From: a virus
DNA length: 64,000 bases
IMG/VR virus record: IMGVR_UViG_3300044259_000094
Coordinates: 31,734-95,733 of that record
Strand: one strand, 5' to 3'
Positions 56,305 through 59,156 of this stretch are shown here, piece by piece (position 1 is the first letter of the stretch; every line of letters starts with the position of its first letter). The notes under the pieces are model-generated. The model searched no databases and had not been told where the DNA came from. It saw only the letters and a list, made by a program, of their open reading frames with translations. A program made the position numbers and the translations under genes.

Positions 56305-56333
56305 TTGCTAACCTTACACAGCGTCTGTAAAGT
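56305..56333 (+). promoter_or_regulatory. sigma70-like promoter of the SLOG/TerB/ncRNA operon
   Basis: TTGCTA-17-TAAAGT with A-tract upstream. Confidence 0.65.
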
Positions 56334-56370
56334 TCAATTCATCGAAACGCAGCAGCAAACGAGAGCAACG

Positions 56371-56907
56371 ATGAAAGCATATGTGGGCGCGGGATCAGGC
56401 AACACCCCTCCTGATGTGCTGGAACTGATGTTCAAGATTGCGGGTGTGATGTCTCAGAAAGGCATCACCCTACGCTGTAGCGAAAGCGGTATCGCCGACG
56501 AGACTTTCGTCAAAGGGTGCAAAGGCAGGTTCTTCACATACATTCCTCACGGGTGTATCGATGAATCGCTGGATAACCCGGATGCGAAACCCTACAAGCC
56601 AAGTGTTTGGGGTATCACCTCTGACCTTAGCCCGGGTAGTAGCGATGTCGCTTTCGCAAGGTCACTCGACCCAGGATTCCTCATGCTGTCTACAGCTGAG
56701 AAGCAATGGGAAGTGGTAGCAAACTCGCTGATCTACGGTCTTCCTGTGTTGGGTAAGCACAGTAGCCTAGCGAAAATGTTGATCTGCTGGTCTGAACCCG
56801 GCGATCACGTTGAACGGTACATCAAGAAGGCTGCGAAAGCCGGTGTACTAACCCTGAACCTTGCAATTCCGCAAGACAGGGCAAAAGTCGAGTCTTGGAC
56901 TCGCTGA
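56371..56907 (+). CDS. SLOG-superfamily (DprA/Smf-like) protein with divergent motifs
   Basis: YVGAGSGNTPPDVL...GITLRCSESGIADETF resembles YAGIGSRxTP...LRSGGAxGAD; LICWS; LNL. Confidence 0.65.
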   Translation: MKAYVGAGSGNTPPDVLELMFKIAGVMSQKGITLRCSESGIADETFVKGCKGRFFTYIPHGCIDESLDNPDAKPYKPSVWGITSDLSPGSSDVAFARSLDPGFLMLSTAEKQWEVVANSLIYGLPVLGKHSSLAKMLICWSEPGDHVERYIKKAAKAGVLTLNLAIPQDRAKVESWTR

Positions 56908-56924
56908 TTATTAGGAGCTACAAA

Positions 56925-57377
56925 ATGGGTCTATTGGGCGCAATCTTCGGTAAAGGCGTGAAGAAGAAAACCACCGAAATCTCGGCTGAAATCGCCAAGA
57001 AAGTGAACCGTGATCTGGTTCAGGGCACCATCTACGGCTGCTTCTTCGTCGCATCGTCTGACGGCGATCTGGGCGAGGACGAAATCAAGAAGATCGAAAA
57101 GCTGATCGCCAACGAACCTCTGATGGCCGGCTTCGGTGCCGAGTTGTCCAACCTGCTGGACACCGCAGAAGCTTCGTACACCGACGGCGGTCCTCGCATC
57201 ATCAAGCGTCGTGCCAAGCAAGAGCTGGAAGACCTCAAGCACGATCCGGAACAAGCTGATATCGCCATGACCATCATGGCCACCATTGCCGACCTGGGCG
57301 GCATCGGTGAAGCTGAGCAGAAGGCTCTGACCGAAGCTGCTCAGTGGCTGAACCTGAACGTTAAAGATTACCTGTAA
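56925..57377 (+). CDS. TerB-like protein
   Basis: VASSDGDLGEDE...IADLGGIGEAE..AL duplicated ADG-x4-E motifs; AGGAG RBS. Confidence 0.8.
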   Translation: MGLLGAIFGKGVKKKTTEISAEIAKKVNRDLVQGTIYGCFFVASSDGDLGEDEIKKIEKLIANEPLMAGFGAELSNLLDTAEASYTDGGPRIIKRRAKQELEDLKHDPEQADIAMTIMATIADLGGIGEAEQKALTEAAQWLNLNVKDYL

Positions 57378-57565
57378 TGGGTTTTCTTGCTGAGCTGGGG
57401 AGTCGCCTTCGGGCGATTCTCATAATCTTAGCGCTGTTCGGTGTTGTTGCTGTTGATGCTGCTTCCCGGATCATTAGCACCTTCGCCGACGGGTTCCTCG
57501 CCATCGTAATCTTGGCTTTGATCTGGCCCTTGATCAAAGCCAAACCTAGCGCCGAAAAGCAGTAA
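57377..57565 (+). CDS. small two-TM membrane protein
   Basis: 62 aa; TAATG overlap with the TerB-like gene. Confidence 0.75.
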   Translation: MGFLAELGSRLRAILIILALFGVVAVDAASRIISTFADGFLAIVILALIWPLIKAKPSAEKQ

Positions 57566-57767
57566 GCCTCGTTTGGGCTTGTCGAGCAGAGGTCCGTTAA
57601 ACCTCCGAGCCGACCTCTAAGCGAGGCGATGAATAGATAATTGATGACTAGAAACGTGGGCCGCCGGCGCGAGTCCACGTTTCATCGAGCGAAAGCTTAG
57701 GTCTGAACCATCGAAACCTGGCTGGCGGAGAAATCCGTCGATGGTTCAGAACCTAAGTTTTCATCAA
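57566..57767 (+). ncRNA. structured RNA candidate (three long irregular hairpins)
   Basis: GCCTCGTTTG/TAAGCGAGGC; GAAACGTGGG/TCCACGTTTC; GAAAGCTTAGGT-CTGAACCATC/GATGGTTCAG-A-ACCTAAGTTTTC with a GAAA tetraloop. Confidence 0.6.
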
Positions 57768-57785
57768 CGTAACGGGAGTTACATC

Positions 57786-58190
57786 ATGTTTGTTGGTAAC
57801 GAACGCAAGATCACGGTTCTCAAAGCTGAGCTGCTGGAAAAGCTGAAAGCCGGCCTGGCGAAGCATCAGAAGGACTTCGCCGAAGCCCATGACGATTACG
57901 TCAAGGCCGCTCAAGCTTTCGTCAAGGCCGCTGCTGAGCGCGTAGCCGTCGGCGATCTGTCCAATCTGGACTTCAGTCGCCACTGCGAGAAGCCTCGCTC
58001 TTACGCGAAGTCCTTCGACAAGGCTATCGCGATGGTTGAAATGTCCATTGGCGATGAAGTCACTCTGGACGAGAAGACCTTCGGTGAGTGGGTTCTCGGT
58101 GAGTGGAACTGGGCCGGCACCTTCGAAGCCTACGGCATGGCCGCGAAGAGTGCGATCAGCAGCCTGACCACTCGCGTAGTCGGCAGCTAA
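57786..58190 (+). CDS. conserved phage hypothetical protein
   Basis: Start MFVGNE with GGGAG RBS; strong codon bias. Confidence 0.8.
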   Translation: MFVGNERKITVLKAELLEKLKAGLAKHQKDFAEAHDDYVKAAQAFVKAAAERVAVGDLSNLDFSRHCEKPRSYAKSFDKAIAMVEMSIGDEVTLDEKTFGEWVLGEWNWAGTFEAYGMAAKSAISSLTTRVVGS

Positions 58191-58388
58191 ATGACCACCT
58201 TCTCGCTGGACGAGTTTGTAGCTGAGGTTCAGAACTCACCTGCAGACTTCAAAGCGTGGTGGCTGGATCAGCGGTCAAAAGCTGCTGATCCAGAAACTTG
58301 GCCTCTGGAGTTACCAGAGAGCAATGCCGGGACGTTCTATGAGGCGTTTGTCGACTACCTCTATCACGTTCACGGTAATGAAGACTGA
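58191..58388 (+). CDS. hypothetical protein
   Basis: 65 aa directly after the previous stop. Confidence 0.7.
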   Translation: MTTFSLDEFVAEVQNSPADFKAWWLDQRSKAADPETWPLELPESNAGTFYEAFVDYLYHVHGNED

Positions 58389-58510
58389 GAAGTCTTCATT
58401 CTTGGTAAGCAGGAGAACTTGGGTTCAACTCCCTTGATTCGGACGGCCCGCCTAACAGGGCTATTAGCTTACGCTGGTTAAAGCGCCTGCTTACCAAGAA
58501 TGAAGATTTT
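58389..58510 (+). ncRNA. circularly permuted tRNA-like RNA (T arm, looped acceptor stem, D arm) closed by a 25-bp duplex
   Basis: 3'-half elements precede 5'-half elements; 58389-58413 pairs with 58486-58510. Confidence 0.8.
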
Positions 58511-58584
58511 GGGGTATCACTGCCACATATGGGAGGCAGGGTCCGGAAGGATCGACGAGGGTTAAACTCCCTCATACTCCACCA
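58511..58584 (+). ncRNA. anticodon-less tRNA-like RNA with Ala identity elements
   Basis: GGGGTAT/ATACTCC-A-CCA (G3.U70, A73); CTGCC/GGCAG D stem; GGTCC-GGAA-GGATC; GAGGG-TTAAACT-CCCTC. Confidence 0.85.
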
Positions 58585-58589
58585 GTTTT

Positions 58590-58669
58590 GAGGGTATACG
58601 CAAATTGGGAAAGCGGTCGGGTGGTGAACCCGATGATTTTAGGCGGTTCGAGTCCCCTTGCCCTCACCA
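58590..58669 (+). tRNA. aberrant tRNA-His(GTG)-like gene
   Basis: GAGGGTA/TGCCCTC-A-CCA; TCGGG-TGGTGAA-CCCGA; bulged T stem; G at position 33. Confidence 0.7.
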
Positions 58670-58672
58670 TAT

Positions 58673-58716
58673 CCAAAAAGAGTTGGCATTCTGTAAGAGA
58701 ATGCCTTATCTTTTGG
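58673..58716 (+). other. RNA hairpin (possible processing element)
   Basis: CCAAAA..GGCATTCT-GTAAG-AGAATGCC..TTTTGG. Confidence 0.55.
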
Positions 58717-58952
58717 TTGCTCTCCCTTGGTTAGAGGGTTGGGTGTGTCGTTCTGTAGCATGCCGGATAGGTGAATGTAAGTAGCGGTGACTATGCCTTT
58801 GGTTTGTGGGTGTCACTACGAAAGATCACAGAGCCTACCGGGAGACTGCTGGTGTTGTTCCCACCTCCTGCTCCACCAGTCTTACAAATCTGTGACTCCT
58901 AAAGCCCGCACTCTGACGGGAACGAACCCTCGGTACACACCGAAGCAGAGAC
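58717..58952 (+). ncRNA. structured, probably pseudoknotted RNA candidate
   Basis: Many 5-8 bp complementary segments, several crossing (see finding); ends at the terminator. Confidence 0.55.
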
Positions 58953-58977
58953 AAAAGCCCGCGAAAGCGGGCTTTTT
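58953..58977. terminator. bidirectional intrinsic terminator
   Basis: AAAAGCCCGC-GAAA-GCGGGCTTTTT. Confidence 0.92.
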
Positions 58978-59156
58978 ATTGTCTTTGTTTTAGCACTCAC
59001 AGCGAGCAGAAACGACACGCTTGGGAAGCTCGTTTTTAAGCGATTACAGCGCGTTTCTCGATCAAGACAAGTCAGCATAGCGCTCAACAAAAAGCGCTCA
59101 AATAGAGCGCTTTTAGACAGCTTGCCAGGTCTATAGACCGTCGTACTCTTCCTTGT

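What the first reader, a model, noticed from the sequence alone, without database searches (positions are those of the whole stretch)
58389..58510. Circularly permuted tRNA-like RNA with the anticodon loop replaced by a 25-bp duplex
SEEN, 5' to 3': anticodon 3' strand GCAGG (58409-13); variable loop AGAAC; T arm TTGGG-TTCAACT-CCC (58419-33) with a 7-nt insert TTGATTC before GG; acceptor 3' strand ACGGCCC (58443-49); loop GCCTAACA, whose GCCT resembles NCCA; acceptor 5' strand GGGCTAT (58458-64); TA; D arm GCTT-ACGCTGGTTA-AAGC; G26; anticodon 5' strand CCTGC (58486-90). The ends form 21 perfect Watson-Crick pairs (58393-413 / 58486-506), extendable to 25 with G.U. The strands read TT-GGT-AA (a typical Thr loop) and TT-ACC-AA where the anticodon loop would be. 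KNOWN: this T-acceptor-D order is the topology of bacterial Y RNA-like YrlA (Ro60/Rsr partners) and of permuted tRNA genes in Cyanidioschyzon and Thermofilum. Here the stem lacks an evident bulged Ro-binding helix or BHB motif, and no Ro60 or RtcB gene is in the window. INFERENCE: either a Ro-independent tRNA-elbow mimic with no chargeable end, or a precursor cut in the duplex (RNase III-like) and re-ligated. RNase P cleavage of the next RNA at 58510/58511 would create its 3' end exactly.
Basis: partly seen in the sequence, partly recalled or inferred. Interest (0 to 1): 0.9.

Follow-up and report, generated by a model that had tools for sequence, protein, structure and literature searches.

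The report
Sealed tRNA-mimic RNA family in phages
The flagged 122 bases are a real small-RNA gene, a tRNA body in rotated order with a sealed acceptor end and no anticodon; it belongs to an apparently uncatalogued RNA family found once per genome in about 25 large phages, and no Ro60-type partner gene was detectable.

Summary
Window 58389-58510 folds as described: a 25-bp closing stem, T-like arm, sealed acceptor-like hairpin and D-like arm (-59.4 kcal/mol, z = -7.9).

It is not a one-off. I found 25 distinct homologs, exactly one per genome, in large phages of 93-325 kb infecting Pseudomonas, Salmonella, Cronobacter and Enterobacter, and in uncultured viral contigs. Most lie inside tRNA arrays on the tRNA strand, and all are unannotated or mis-called as small ORFs.

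- **Structure support:** all 10 modelled closing-stem pairs and all 6 T-stem pairs covary. The acceptor-like hairpin (GGCCC/GGGCY, loop GCC...AACA) and the D stem are invariant.
- **Closing stem:** it is usually 6-14 bp, so the 25-bp duplex is a local peculiarity, not the defining trait.
- **Relation to known families:** Rfam 15 has no model for it. The YrlA model does not match it, and my model gives a true YrlA only noise.
- **Partners:** the closing stems share no sequence, so there is no Ro-binding motif. TROVE was absent from 11 carrier genomes, DUF2828 from 5, and no other protein partner is constant.

Best reading: a Ro-independent, YrlA-style sealed tRNA mimic derived from a phage tRNA(CAU)-type gene, probably bound through its invariant acceptor arm by a conserved host factor. 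Function is inferred. Re-ligation into a decoding tRNA is rejected.

This scan has reported other phage permuted-tRNA mimics ("ACAGCAA handle" RNAs).

The parts
58389..58413 (+). P1 closing stem, 5' strand (takes the place of the anticodon stem 3' strand). The inner ~12 bp correspond to the family's usual P1; the outer ~12 bp are an extension seen only here and in phage Peetri.
   Evidence: for pairing; searches show 10/10 modelled P1 pairs covary and 95.6% of cells are paired; one search gives P1 lengths of 6-14 bp in 23 copies and 25 and 27 bp in two.
58414..58418 (+). AGAAC, a junction in the variable-loop position (family consensus AGA-N-C). It may pair with the UC of the linker, but this is unproven.
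   Evidence: Alignments. Searches show two pairing registers are compatible (about 80-96% of cells paired) but without double changes.
58418..58436 (+). T-like arm: 6-position stem CTTGGG/CCCTTG (C-G, two U.U, three G-C in this copy) and 7-nt T loop TTCAACT.
   Evidence: 6/6 stem pairs show double changes in the family. The T loop is TTCRAnn in 20 of 25 copies.
58437..58444 (+). Conserved linker ATTCGGAC (family N-TC-NN-GGA-M, with GGA invariant) between the T stem and the acceptor-like stem. It has no counterpart in tRNA or in the true YrlA that I fetched (L032).
   Evidence: G39, G40, A41 invariant; for the true YrlA lacking it.
58445..58462 (+). Sealed acceptor-like hairpin: stem GGCCC/GGGCT and loop GCCTAACA. 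The loop ends GCC and AACA are conserved (GCC invariant; AACA in 24 of 25 copies); the middle varies by 0-6 nt.
   Evidence: 4 pairs never vary and the fifth is G.U or G-C. Loop data.
58463..58466 (+). ATTA: positions equivalent to tRNA 6-7 (not canonically paired in most copies), then U8-A9.
   Evidence: TA invariant.
58467..58485 (+). D-like arm GCTT-ACGCTGGTTA-AAGC plus a G26-like base.
   Evidence: stem invariant or wobble only; the GG of the loop is kept wherever the T loop is canonical.
58486..58510 (+). P1 closing stem, 3' strand. It ends one base before the acceptor stem of the next tRNA-like RNA.
58511..58669 (+). Co-transcribed neighbours, given as context: an anticodon-less Ala-type tRNA-like RNA with encoded CCA (58511-58584) and tRNA-His (58590-58669). 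A terminator-like hairpin follows at 58685-58705.
   Evidence: (tmRNA tRNA-like-domain hit of 18.9 bits; tRNA 39.1 bits).

Best explanation
Window 58389-58510 is one gene of a phage-restricted family of small structured RNAs that I could not find in Rfam 15 or in the papers searched.

**Architecture (shown).** Each member is a tRNA body in rotated order:
- a closing stem P1 of free sequence, in place of the anticodon stem;
- a variable-loop-like AGAnC;
- a T-like arm;
- a conserved linker N-UC-NN-GGA;
- an invariant sealed acceptor-like hairpin GGCCC/GGGCY with loop GCC-(0-6 nt)-AACA;
- U8-A9, a D-like arm, and a G26-like base.

**Conservation and setting (shown).** The helices are under selection. 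There is one copy per genome. The usual position is inside tRNA arrays on the tRNA strand. The Ro60/Y-RNA hallmarks are absent.

**Fold (inferred from limited data).** The T and D loops appear to touch as in a tRNA elbow. In two members both loops were replaced together by complementary 'kissing' loops.

**Origin (inferred).** The halves most resemble phage tRNA(CAU) genes, and tandem identical tRNAs score as weak look-alikes. The family therefore probably arose from the 3' half of one tRNA copy plus the 5' half of the next.

**Biogenesis (inferred).** It is transcribed with the tRNA operon and released by the cuts that mature its neighbours. In this window that would be RNase P at 58510/58511. 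The extra ~12 bp of P1, seen only here and in phage Peetri where an ORF rather than a tRNA lies upstream, would act as an RNase III stalk that frees the 5' side.

**Function (inferred).** The RNA is a stable L-shaped tRNA mimic that cannot decode or be charged. It would act in trans through its invariant sealed acceptor arm and junction, as a decoy or competitor for a conserved tRNA-acceptor-arm-binding factor. That factor is most likely host-encoded, because no phage protein tested here travels with the RNA, and it is independent of Ro60.

**Confidence.** That this is a real, conserved structured RNA family with this architecture: about 0.95. The figure given in the confidence field (0.5) is for the functional reading.
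For: **Fold**
- MFE and centroid agree with the described fold; z = -7.87, 0 of 200 shuffles as good.

**Homologs**
- blastn against phages gives 80-86% identity over the ~75-nt core in unrelated Pseudomonas, Cronobacter, Enterobacter and Salmonella phages, with nothing annotated under the match in most records.
- Pattern scans of IMG/VR and metagenomes add more copies.
- 25 distinct copies score 77-101 bits with my model R1; the next best scores are <=38.5 bits and are all tandem tRNAs.
- Exactly one strong match per genome (77-101 bits) in 19 of 19 carrier records; the only second match, in GAP31, scores 28.7 bits, and the window's own record has a single match.

**Covariation**
- P1 10/10 pairs and T stem 6/6 pairs covary; covariation score 0.55 against 0.157 in shuffles and <=0.153 for slid partners.
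- RNAalifold independently predicts the same four helices.

**Elbow contact**
- L021 has GUGCC/GGCGU and L040 has GCGUUA/UAACGU, with two double compensations in one register.

**Context**
- 19 of 25 loci carry same-strand tRNAs; only the window's locus has any on the opposite strand. 11 copies have a tRNA within 9 nt of P1.

**Phage restriction**
- The genome-contig scan of 185,579 species gave only 3 matches. They lack the T and D arms, and R1 gives them nothing significant (best 13.9 bits, E 0.45).

**Ro independence**
- RF02553 is absent at E<=10.
- A true YrlA (69.4 bits with RF02553) gets 17.1 bits with R1.
- TROVE 0 of 11 genomes; DUF2828 0 of 5.

**No constant phage partner**
- RtcB 6/17, CCA-adding enzyme 4/17, Thg1-like 3/19.
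- Flanking genes are unrelated between loci.

**Origin**
- The U8-A9-GCUU D-stem type occurs only in tRNA(CAU) (5 of 12) and one tRNA-Phe among the ~140 tRNAs screened for it.
- Best half-match 0.77, to a tRNA(CAU) in L013.
Against: - There is no expression, end-mapping, binding or phenotype datum. Everything about function is inference.
- The acceptor-like and D stems never vary, so their pairing is supported by energy and tRNA analogy only, not by covariation.
- The conserved GCC just 3' of the acceptor-like stem, and a loop whose middle varies in length, also fit a loop that is cut out (rival 1).
- A divergent Ro-like protein that Pfam cannot see was not excluded. Earlier notes of this scan claim such proteins in other phages.
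- Two members (L009, L012) have a non-T loop and a non-GG D loop with no evident complementarity, so the elbow contact is not universal.
- The RNase III idea rests on two cases.
- The family is rare: about 12 GenBank phages (17 records, some the same phage twice), 15 IMG/VR contigs and 8 metagenome contigs matching a strict pattern. Its importance may be narrow.
Confidence: 0.5

Rival explanations
1. Split tRNA-like RNA. RNase P cuts the sealed loop between AACA and GGGC, exonucleases trim back to GCC, and the CCA-adding enzyme adds A. The mature form would be two pieces held together by P1, with a free G-CCA end, as reported for Mycobacterium smegmatis YrlA. It could then act as a substrate or decoy for enzymes or toxins that work on tRNA 3' ends.
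For: GCC is invariant exactly where positions 73-75 would lie. The loop middle varies by 0-6 nt, as expected for a disposable linker, and three copies read GCCA. There is precedent: M. smegmatis YrlA is cleaved by RNase P and receives CCA (PMC4201824; bioRxiv 10.1101/312249).
Against: The base after GCC is U in most copies, while 114 of 127 tRNAs of the same phages encode CCA. The putative leader AACA is near-invariant (24 of 25 copies) yet atypical: the local tRNA leader consensus is A(-2)U(-1), and AACA occurs in 0 of 127. The acceptor-like stem has only 5 canonical pairs, and a 7-8-nt linker separates it from the T stem, which should disturb the 12-bp acceptor/T stack that RNase P measures. 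Chen et al. ascribe the lack of cleavage of other YrlAs to stems shorter than 7 bp. G73 with G1-C72 and no anticodon matches no anticodon-independent synthetase identity that I know of (own knowledge).
Confidence: 0.2
2. A true Y RNA: it binds the host's Rsr/Ro60 or an undetected, highly divergent phage Ro-like protein, and tethers or gates it as YrlA does.
For: The overall design is the same as the YrlA tRNA-like domain. Earlier notes of this scan (unverified) report phage Ro60-shaped proteins that Pfam TROVE misses. Some hosts, such as Salmonella, have Rsr (PMC4201824).
Against: P1 has no conserved sequence, bulge or GNCGAA-like motif in 25 copies. RF02553 does not match. TROVE is absent in 11 of 11 carrier genomes and DUF2828 in 5 of 5. 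The ACAGCAA 'handle' of the scan's other phage family is absent from the RNA region and is not enriched in the window (16 matches against 10 +/- 3.3 expected). The most conserved part is the acceptor-like hairpin, which is the least conserved part of YrlA.
Confidence: 0.1
3. A cis-acting processing or stability module. The structure only punctuates the polycistronic tRNA transcript, for example as an RNase P/RNase E/RNase III entry site or as a protective cap for neighbouring RNAs. It would have no trans-acting role.
For: It is always on the tRNA strand, and its ends often lie within 0-9 nt of tRNAs. The long P1 occurs where an mRNA lies upstream.
Against: A punctuation signal needs shape, not about 30 invariant nucleotides kept across unrelated phage lineages: T5-like, rV5-like (Vequintavirinae), Chakrabartyvirus, Otagovirus and jumbo phages. 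There is one copy per genome against 10-25 tRNAs. Some copies have no tRNA nearby (L001, L017, L018, L021, L040, L043).
Confidence: 0.12
4. A circularly permuted pre-tRNA gene: the duplex is cut and the ends are ligated to rebuild an anticodon loop (Thr, GGU), and the acceptor loop is then opened to give a decoding tRNA.
For: The topology matches permuted tRNA genes. The window's P1 happens to read TTGGTAA/TTACCAA. Some carriers encode RtcB (6 of 17).
Against: P1 is 6-14 bp of unconserved sequence in 23 copies, with no bulge-helix-bulge motif and no anticodon-loop-like motif at a fixed distance. The window's phage record has no RtcB. No bacterial splicing endonuclease is known. The non-tRNA linker and the 5-bp acceptor stem would remain in the product.
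Confidence: 0.02
5. A decaying remnant of a tandem tRNA duplication, or a chance fold, with no function.
For: Tandem identical tRNAs mimic the design and score 38.5 bits with R1 and 30-42 bits with RF02553. One copy (phage FENT2) carries two substitutions in otherwise invariant positions.
Against: 25 diverged copies keep the fold through compensatory changes and keep about 30 invariant bases. There is a single copy in 19 of 19 genomes. True members score 77-101 bits, far above the tandem-tRNA noise.
Confidence: 0.02

Closest known systems
YrlA (Y RNA-like A; Rfam RF02553; Chen et al. 2014, PMC4201824; Wang et al. 2018, bioRxiv 10.1101/312249)
   Same: A rotated tRNA-like body: 5'/3' ends paired in place of the anticodon stem, then T arm, closed acceptor-like hairpin and D arm. 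U8-A9, the GG D loop and the TTCRA T loop are kept. There is no anticodon and no free CCA. Some YrlAs are encoded by phages.
   Different: It fails the Rfam model in both directions (no hit at E<=10; a true YrlA gets 17 bits with my model). The closing stem carries no conserved Ro-binding sequence. No TROVE gene is present in 11 carrier genomes. The acceptor-like hairpin is invariant here but unconserved in YrlA. An extra conserved 7-8-nt linker sits between the T stem and the acceptor-like stem. There is no V stem-loop. It is encoded inside tRNA arrays of lytic phages rather than next to rsr.
Circularly permuted tRNA genes (Cyanidioschyzon merolae, Thermofilum; Soma et al. 2007, as cited in 10.1101/312249)
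   Same: Gene order is 3' half, linker, 5' half. The acceptor end is initially closed and the termini are paired.
   Different: There is no bulge-helix-bulge motif and no recoverable anticodon loop. The closing-stem sequence is free. The hosts are bacteria without a splicing endonuclease. Non-tRNA insertions would remain in the product.
Stable RNAs of unknown function in phage tRNA clusters: T5 rna1 ('tRNA-like'), RNAI, RNAIII, RNA2H; T4 rnaC/rnaD (GenBank annotations NC_005859, NC_000866)
   Same: They are small non-tRNA RNAs co-encoded with phage tRNAs. In T5 they lie directly upstream of tRNA-His; in the window the element lies two genes upstream of tRNA-His, with the Ala-type RNA in between.
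   Different: There is no sequence or structure homology: R1 scores are <=17.6 bits on both loci, at the level of tandem-tRNA noise.
'ACAGCAA-handle' phage RNAs with a Ro60-shaped partner
   Same: They are phage tRNA-array RNAs, some of which carry a permuted, sealed tRNA mimic on a closing stem.
   Different: There is no ACAGCAA next to P1. DUF2828/TROVE-type partner genes were not detected. Here the conserved 'business end' is the acceptor-like hairpin, not a handle at the stem.

Membership tests
YrlA / bacterial Y RNA (RF02553) | Scores at or above the Rfam gathering threshold (69 bits) with the YrlA covariance model | tested here: not met
   There was no RF02553 match to 58389-58510 at E<=10, either in a 901-nt search or in the whole virus record, where the only hits were tandem tRNAs at 26.6 bits. 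Reciprocally, a true YrlA (L032, 69.4 bits) scores 17.1 bits with R1.
YrlA / bacterial Y RNA (RF02553) | tRNA-like domain in the order T arm, closed acceptor-like stem-loop, D arm, with the termini paired | tested here: met
YrlA / bacterial Y RNA (RF02553) | Conserved Ro/Rsr-binding motif (GNCGAAN0-1G, or a bulged helix) in the terminal stem (PMC4201824) | tested here: not met
   The P1 stems of 25 copies share no sequence and are plain duplexes.
YrlA / bacterial Y RNA (RF02553) | Encoded next to, or in a genome with, an rsr/TROVE gene | tested here: not met
   PF05731 gave 0 matches at E<=1 in 10 carrier genomes and 0 at E<=0.01 in the window's own record; the controls D. radiodurans and B. 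thetaiotaomicron were positive. The window's record is only 85% complete. The Rsr status of the hosts was not tested.
YrlA / bacterial Y RNA (RF02553) | Physical binding to Ro60/Rsr | not testable with these tools
   Needs co-immunoprecipitation or EMSA.
Canonical tRNA (RF00005) | Cloverleaf in standard order with an anticodon loop and a free acceptor end | tested here: not met
   ARAGORN finds none here. The Rfam tRNA hit at 58458-58581 is a chimera with the next RNA.
Permuted tRNA genes processed by splicing | Bulge-helix-bulge motif at the termini and a reconstitutable 7-nt anticodon loop | tested here: not met
   P1 is a perfect or near-perfect duplex of variable length (6-27 bp) and free sequence.
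ACAGCAA-handle phage RNAs (this scan's earlier notes) | Short closing stem followed by ACAGCAA, and a Ro60-shaped (DUF2828/TROVE-like) gene in the genome | tested here: not met
   There is no ACAGCAA in 58000-59000, and the motif is not enriched in the window. PF11443 gave 0 of 5. Folding of all proteins to find hidden Ro-like folds was not done.
New family defined here (model R1) | Covarying P1 and T stem, with invariant GGA-M-GGCCCGCC...AACAGGGC...TAGCTTA | tested here: met
   The window copy scores 95.7 bits (E 6.5e-24).

The most novel reading that the evidence does not exclude
A Ro60-independent class of viral tRNA mimics. This single-copy phage RNA would use an invariant sealed (or RNase P-opened) acceptor arm on a tRNA-shaped scaffold to capture a conserved host factor that acts on tRNA acceptor ends. 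Candidates are a tRNA-directed defence toxin, RNase P, or a 3'-end enzyme. That would add an RNA-decoy layer to the phage-host conflict over tRNAs.
Probability: 0.3. Interest if true: 0.8.

Novelty: new variant of a known kind. Interest (0 to 1): 0.62.

Why it matters
Large virulent phages carry tRNA arrays whose role in evading tRNA-targeting defences is an active topic. Their non-tRNA passengers, such as the T4 and T5 'stable RNAs of unknown function', have stayed unexplained for decades.

This element gives a sharply defined and testable example:
- about 95 nt long (up to about 125 nt where the closing stem is long);
- one copy per genome;
- about 30 invariant bases on a covarying scaffold;
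- spread across unrelated phages of Pseudomonas and enterobacteria.

It shows that the YrlA design, a sealed and rotated tRNA, also exists without any detectable Ro60 partner. The family therefore separates tRNA mimicry from Ro biology and points to another, still unknown, binding partner.

It also matters for annotation. The gene is missed or mis-called as small ORFs in GenBank records, and tandem tRNAs are a false-positive class for permuted-tRNA models.

Tried and rejected
- **Rfam 15.** I searched at gathering thresholds and at E<=10. Nothing fits except a chimeric tRNA hit.
- **Rfam YrlA on the whole virus record.** Only tandem tRNAs match.
- **Bacterial genomes.** The pattern scan gave 3 chance matches without T or D arms. 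The one 38.5-bit R1 hit, in a Halomonas MAG, is a pair of identical tandem tRNAs.
- **T4 rnaC/rnaD and T5 rna1/RNAI/RNAIII/RNA2H.** They are not homologous.
- **Candidate protein partners.**
  - TROVE 0/11 and DUF2828 0/5.
  - RtcB 6/17, never adjacent: 9-17 kb away in the four carriers I compared.
  - CCA-adding enzyme 4/17.
  - Thg1-like 3/19, adjacent only in L017.
- **Upstream ORFs in the window.** They are DprA-like/SLOG, TerB, DUF3927 and two of unknown function, with no RNA-binding candidate.
- **Extension of the T stem by AGA/UC pairing.** Two registers fit, but there are no double changes, so it is left open.
- **Reading GCC...AACA as plain tRNA end-processing signals.** This is not supported by the leaders and CCA ends of 127 tRNAs from the same phages.
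- **Literature.** Searches (YrlA + phage; permuted tRNA + phage; tRNA-like + bacteriophage + tRNA cluster; Y RNA/RtcB/Ro60; phage tRNA mimic/decoy) found no description of this family. Subscription journals are not covered.
- **More isolates.** blastn with divergent members (L009, L021) found no further GenBank carriers.
Full report
**1. The observation**

- P1 pairs 58389-58413 with 58486-58510: 21 consecutive Watson-Crick pairs plus four more, two of them G.U.
- Inside P1 lie AGAAC, a GGG/CCC hairpin with the T loop TTCAACT, the hairpin GGCCC-GCCTAACA-GGGCT, TA, and the D-like arm GCTT-ACGCTGGTTA-AAGC followed by G.
- RNAfold returns this fold as both MFE and centroid: -59.4 kcal/mol against -31.1 +/- 3.6 for shuffles, z = -7.87, with 0 of 200 shuffles as good.
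- ARAGORN finds no tRNA here.
- The Rfam tRNA hit at 58458-58581 (32.5 bits) is an artefact. It joins this element's 5' half to the T arm and CCA end of the next RNA.

**2. It is a family, not a singleton**

The window is part of a 95.7-kb IMG/VR virus record.
- blastn of 58100-59000 against GenBank phages matched only the ~75-nt core (window 58413-58486). Identity was 80-86% in unrelated phages: Pseudomonas phages Peetri, RVTF4, pf16, Astolliot, Milchi and Psa21; Cronobacter GAP31; Enterobacter EC152 and FENT2; Salmonella GSW6 (T5-like) and NINP13076. Nothing was annotated under the match in most records.
- Two records call small 'hypothetical proteins' over the element.
- A pattern built from the invariant core found 15 IMG/VR contigs and 8 metagenome contigs.
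- It found only 3 stretches among the representative genomes of 185,579 prokaryote species. All three lack the T and D arms, and my model gives them nothing significant.
- After removing duplicates there are 25 distinct copies.
- A covariance model built from 20 of them (R1) scores all 25 at 77-101 bits. It finds exactly one strong match (77-101 bits) in each of 19 carrier records of 93-325 kb and in the window's own record; one record also has a 28.7-bit hit, probably tandem tRNAs.
- The best non-member scores are pairs of tandem tRNAs (<=38.5 bits). That is the false-positive class Chen et al. warned about for YrlA searches.

**3. Structure under selection**

On the model-guided alignment of 25 copies:
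- All 10 modelled P1 pairs and all 6 T-stem pairs show changes on both sides.
- 90% of cells are paired, against 70% in shuffles and at most 52% when partners are slid.
- The covariation score is 0.55 against 0.157 in shuffles.
- RNAalifold, run without my structure, predicts the same four helices.
- The acceptor-like stem (GGCCC/GGGCY) and the D stem (GCUU/AAGC) never vary beyond wobble, so the data neither support nor contradict their pairing.

About 30 positions are invariant or nearly so: GGA-M-GGCCCGCC, AACAGGGC, TAGCTTA, and A.AGCG. Three features differ from a plain rotated tRNA:
- a conserved 7-8-nt linker (N-TC-NN-GGA) between the T stem and the acceptor-like stem;
- only five canonical acceptor pairs;
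- a loop whose ends (GCC, AACA) are conserved (AACA in 24 of 25 copies) while its middle varies by 0-6 nt.

Pairing of AGA with the linker's TC, which would extend the T helix, is possible in two registers but shows no double changes.

**4. Evidence for a tRNA-like elbow**

Twenty of the 25 copies keep TTCRAnn in the T loop and GG in the D loop. In L021 and L040 both loops are replaced. The replacements are complementary to each other in the same register: GUGCC/GGCGU in L021 and GCGUUA/UAACGU in L040. Two positions change from C-G to U-A. This suggests that the loop-loop contact, not the canonical sequence, is what is kept. L009 and L012 also have non-canonical loops, but I see no convincing complementarity there, so this stays unexplained.

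**5. P1 length and biogenesis**

P1 is 6-14 bp in 23 copies. Only the window (25 bp) and phage Peetri (27 bp) have long stems.
- In both of those cases a protein-coding ORF, not a tRNA, lies just upstream. In Peetri an intrinsic terminator follows the element.
- Elsewhere the element sits where a tRNA would sit in the array. In 11 copies a same-strand tRNA lies within 9 nt of the outer end of P1, and 19 of 25 loci have same-strand tRNAs; only the window's locus has opposite-strand tRNAs as well.
- I infer that flanking tRNA maturation normally frees the RNA. The extra ~12 bp in the two exceptional copies would be an RNase III stalk whose cleavage leaves a P1 of ordinary length.
- None of this was tested.

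**6. Comparison with YrlA and other known RNAs**

YrlA is described as a circularly permuted tRNA with a closed acceptor stem, which is the same design. Membership fails on every testable criterion other than that shared fold:
- RF02553 does not match at E<=10.
- A genuine YrlA from a gammaproteobacterial genome (69.4 bits with RF02553) gets 17.1 bits with R1. Read directly, it has the GGCGAA motif, a V stem-loop and a 7-bp unconserved acceptor stem that follows the T stem without a linker.
- The 25 P1 stems share no motif.
- TROVE is absent from the window's record and from 10 other carrier genomes, nine of them complete or near-complete, with positive controls working.

Earlier notes of this scan describe other phage permuted-tRNA mimics, carried on an 'ACAGCAA handle' beside a Ro60-shaped, DUF2828-type protein. 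Here the handle is absent and DUF2828 is absent in 5 of 5 genomes.

T5 annotates four 'stable RNAs with unknown functions', three of them directly upstream of tRNA-His, and T4 annotates rnaC and rnaD. The layout is similar, but R1 does not match them.

The literature searches available to me found no description of this family.

**7. Partners and origin**

No phage protein tested here travels with the RNA:
- RtcB 6/17, and 9-17 kb away in the four carriers I compared.
- CCA-adding enzyme 4/17.
- Thg1-like 3/19, adjacent only in L017.
- Flanking ORFs differ between loci.

High core identity across unrelated phages, with no shared phage gene, points to a conserved host factor as the partner. This is inference.

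The two halves are closest to phage tRNA(CAU) genes. The unusual U8-A9-GCUU D stem occurs only in 5 of 12 tRNA(CAU) genes and one tRNA-Phe among the ~140 tRNAs screened for it. One tRNA(CAU) in L013 shares GGGCU...UAGCUUA...GGUUAAAGC, an AGAAG variable loop and GGCCC at its 3' end. Together with the tandem-tRNA look-alikes, this suggests an origin from the junction of a tandem tRNA duplication.

**8. Mechanism**

My best reading, at confidence about 0.5 for the functional part, is a stable, sealed, L-shaped tRNA mimic. It would act in trans through its invariant acceptor arm and junction, as a decoy or competitor for a tRNA-acceptor-binding host factor, independently of Ro60.

The main rival (0.2) is that RNase P opens the loop and the RNA gains CCA, as in M. 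smegmatis YrlA.
- For it: the invariant GCC and the variable loop middle.
- Against it: the base after GCC is mostly U, while the same phages encode CCA in 114 of 127 tRNAs. AACA is not a leader used by any of the 127 local tRNAs, whose consensus is A(-2)U(-1). The short stem plus linker should be a poor RNase P substrate.

Other readings and their confidences:
- a Y-RNA role with a hidden Ro-like partner, 0.1;
- a purely cis-acting processing module, 0.12;
- a re-ligated decoding tRNA, 0.02;
- a functionless remnant, 0.02.

**9. Verdict**

It is a new variant of a known kind: a YrlA-style sealed tRNA mimic that forms its own phage-specific family and shows no sign of a Ro60 partner. The function is unknown, but the element is sharply testable.

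Noticed in passing
window 58511-58584 (+): A 74-nt anticodon-less tRNA-like RNA lies directly after the element. Its acceptor stem is GGGGTAT/ATACTCC with G3.U70, A73 and an encoded CCA. Rfam aligns its ends to the tmRNA tRNA-like domain (18.9 bits, E 1.9e-5, below gathering). Its GGAA-capped stem reads GUCC-GGAA-GGAU, which from memory resembles the tip of SRP/4.5S RNA; I did not test that.
   Followed up: partly
window 58700-58886 and 58745-58925 (+): After tRNA-His and a terminator-like hairpin (58685-58705) lies a further ~200-nt non-coding stretch ending in CUCCACCA. It is 70% identical over 181 nt to an unannotated region of Pseudomonas phage nickie, and a strong terminator follows at 58953-58976. 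It is probably another conserved phage RNA.
   Followed up: no
window 58377-58400 (+): AATGAAGAC (58377-85, the end of the 65-aa ORF, whose TGA stop follows at 58386-88) is a direct repeat of AATGAAGAT (58499-507). It can pair with GTCTTCATT (58392-400) in a -13.7 kcal/mol hairpin that competes with the outer half of P1. It may be a co-transcriptional intermediate or a trace of how the long P1 arose.
   Followed up: partly
L037 (phage T5, NC_005859 30206-30644 and 31808-31979): T5 annotates rna1 ('tRNA-like stable RNA'), RNAI and RNAIII directly upstream of tRNA-His, plus RNA2H, all 'unknown functions'. The layout resembles the window's RNA train, but there is no homology to this family.
   Followed up: yes
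L003 1390-1487 (GAP31); L002 1590-1688 (RVTF4): Non-canonical tRNA-like sequences ending in CCACCA flank the element in other carriers. ARAGORN did not call the RVTF4 one, and neither is annotated in its GenBank record. They suggest further unannotated tRNA mimics in these arrays.
   Followed up: no
L017 7227-8024 (IMG/VR contig of 211.7 kb): A Thg1-like gene (tRNA-His guanylyltransferase / 3'-5' polymerase family, PF04446, E 1.6e-31) lies about 240 nt downstream of the element. Thg1-like genes occur in only 3 of 19 carriers and are adjacent only here.
   Followed up: yes
L026 1490-1612 (NINP13076, QXL90340.1); L024 1418-1546 and 1567-1665 (FENT2): GenBank 'hypothetical protein' CDSs are called across the RNA gene. 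These are likely mis-annotations. The FENT2 copy also carries two substitutions at otherwise invariant positions, G43U and AACA to AAUA.
   Followed up: partly
L031 1297-1466; L033 1480-1650: Tandem identical or near-identical tRNA genes score 30-42 bits with Rfam YrlA and 20-38 bits with R1. This is a systematic false-positive class for any permuted-tRNA model.
   Followed up: yes
window 56305-58388 (+): The ORFs upstream of the RNA train are DprA-like/SLOG (phrog_768), TerB (PF05099), DUF3927/TciB-like, phrog_34511 (unknown function) and a 65-aa orphan. I found no link to the RNA.
   Followed up: partly
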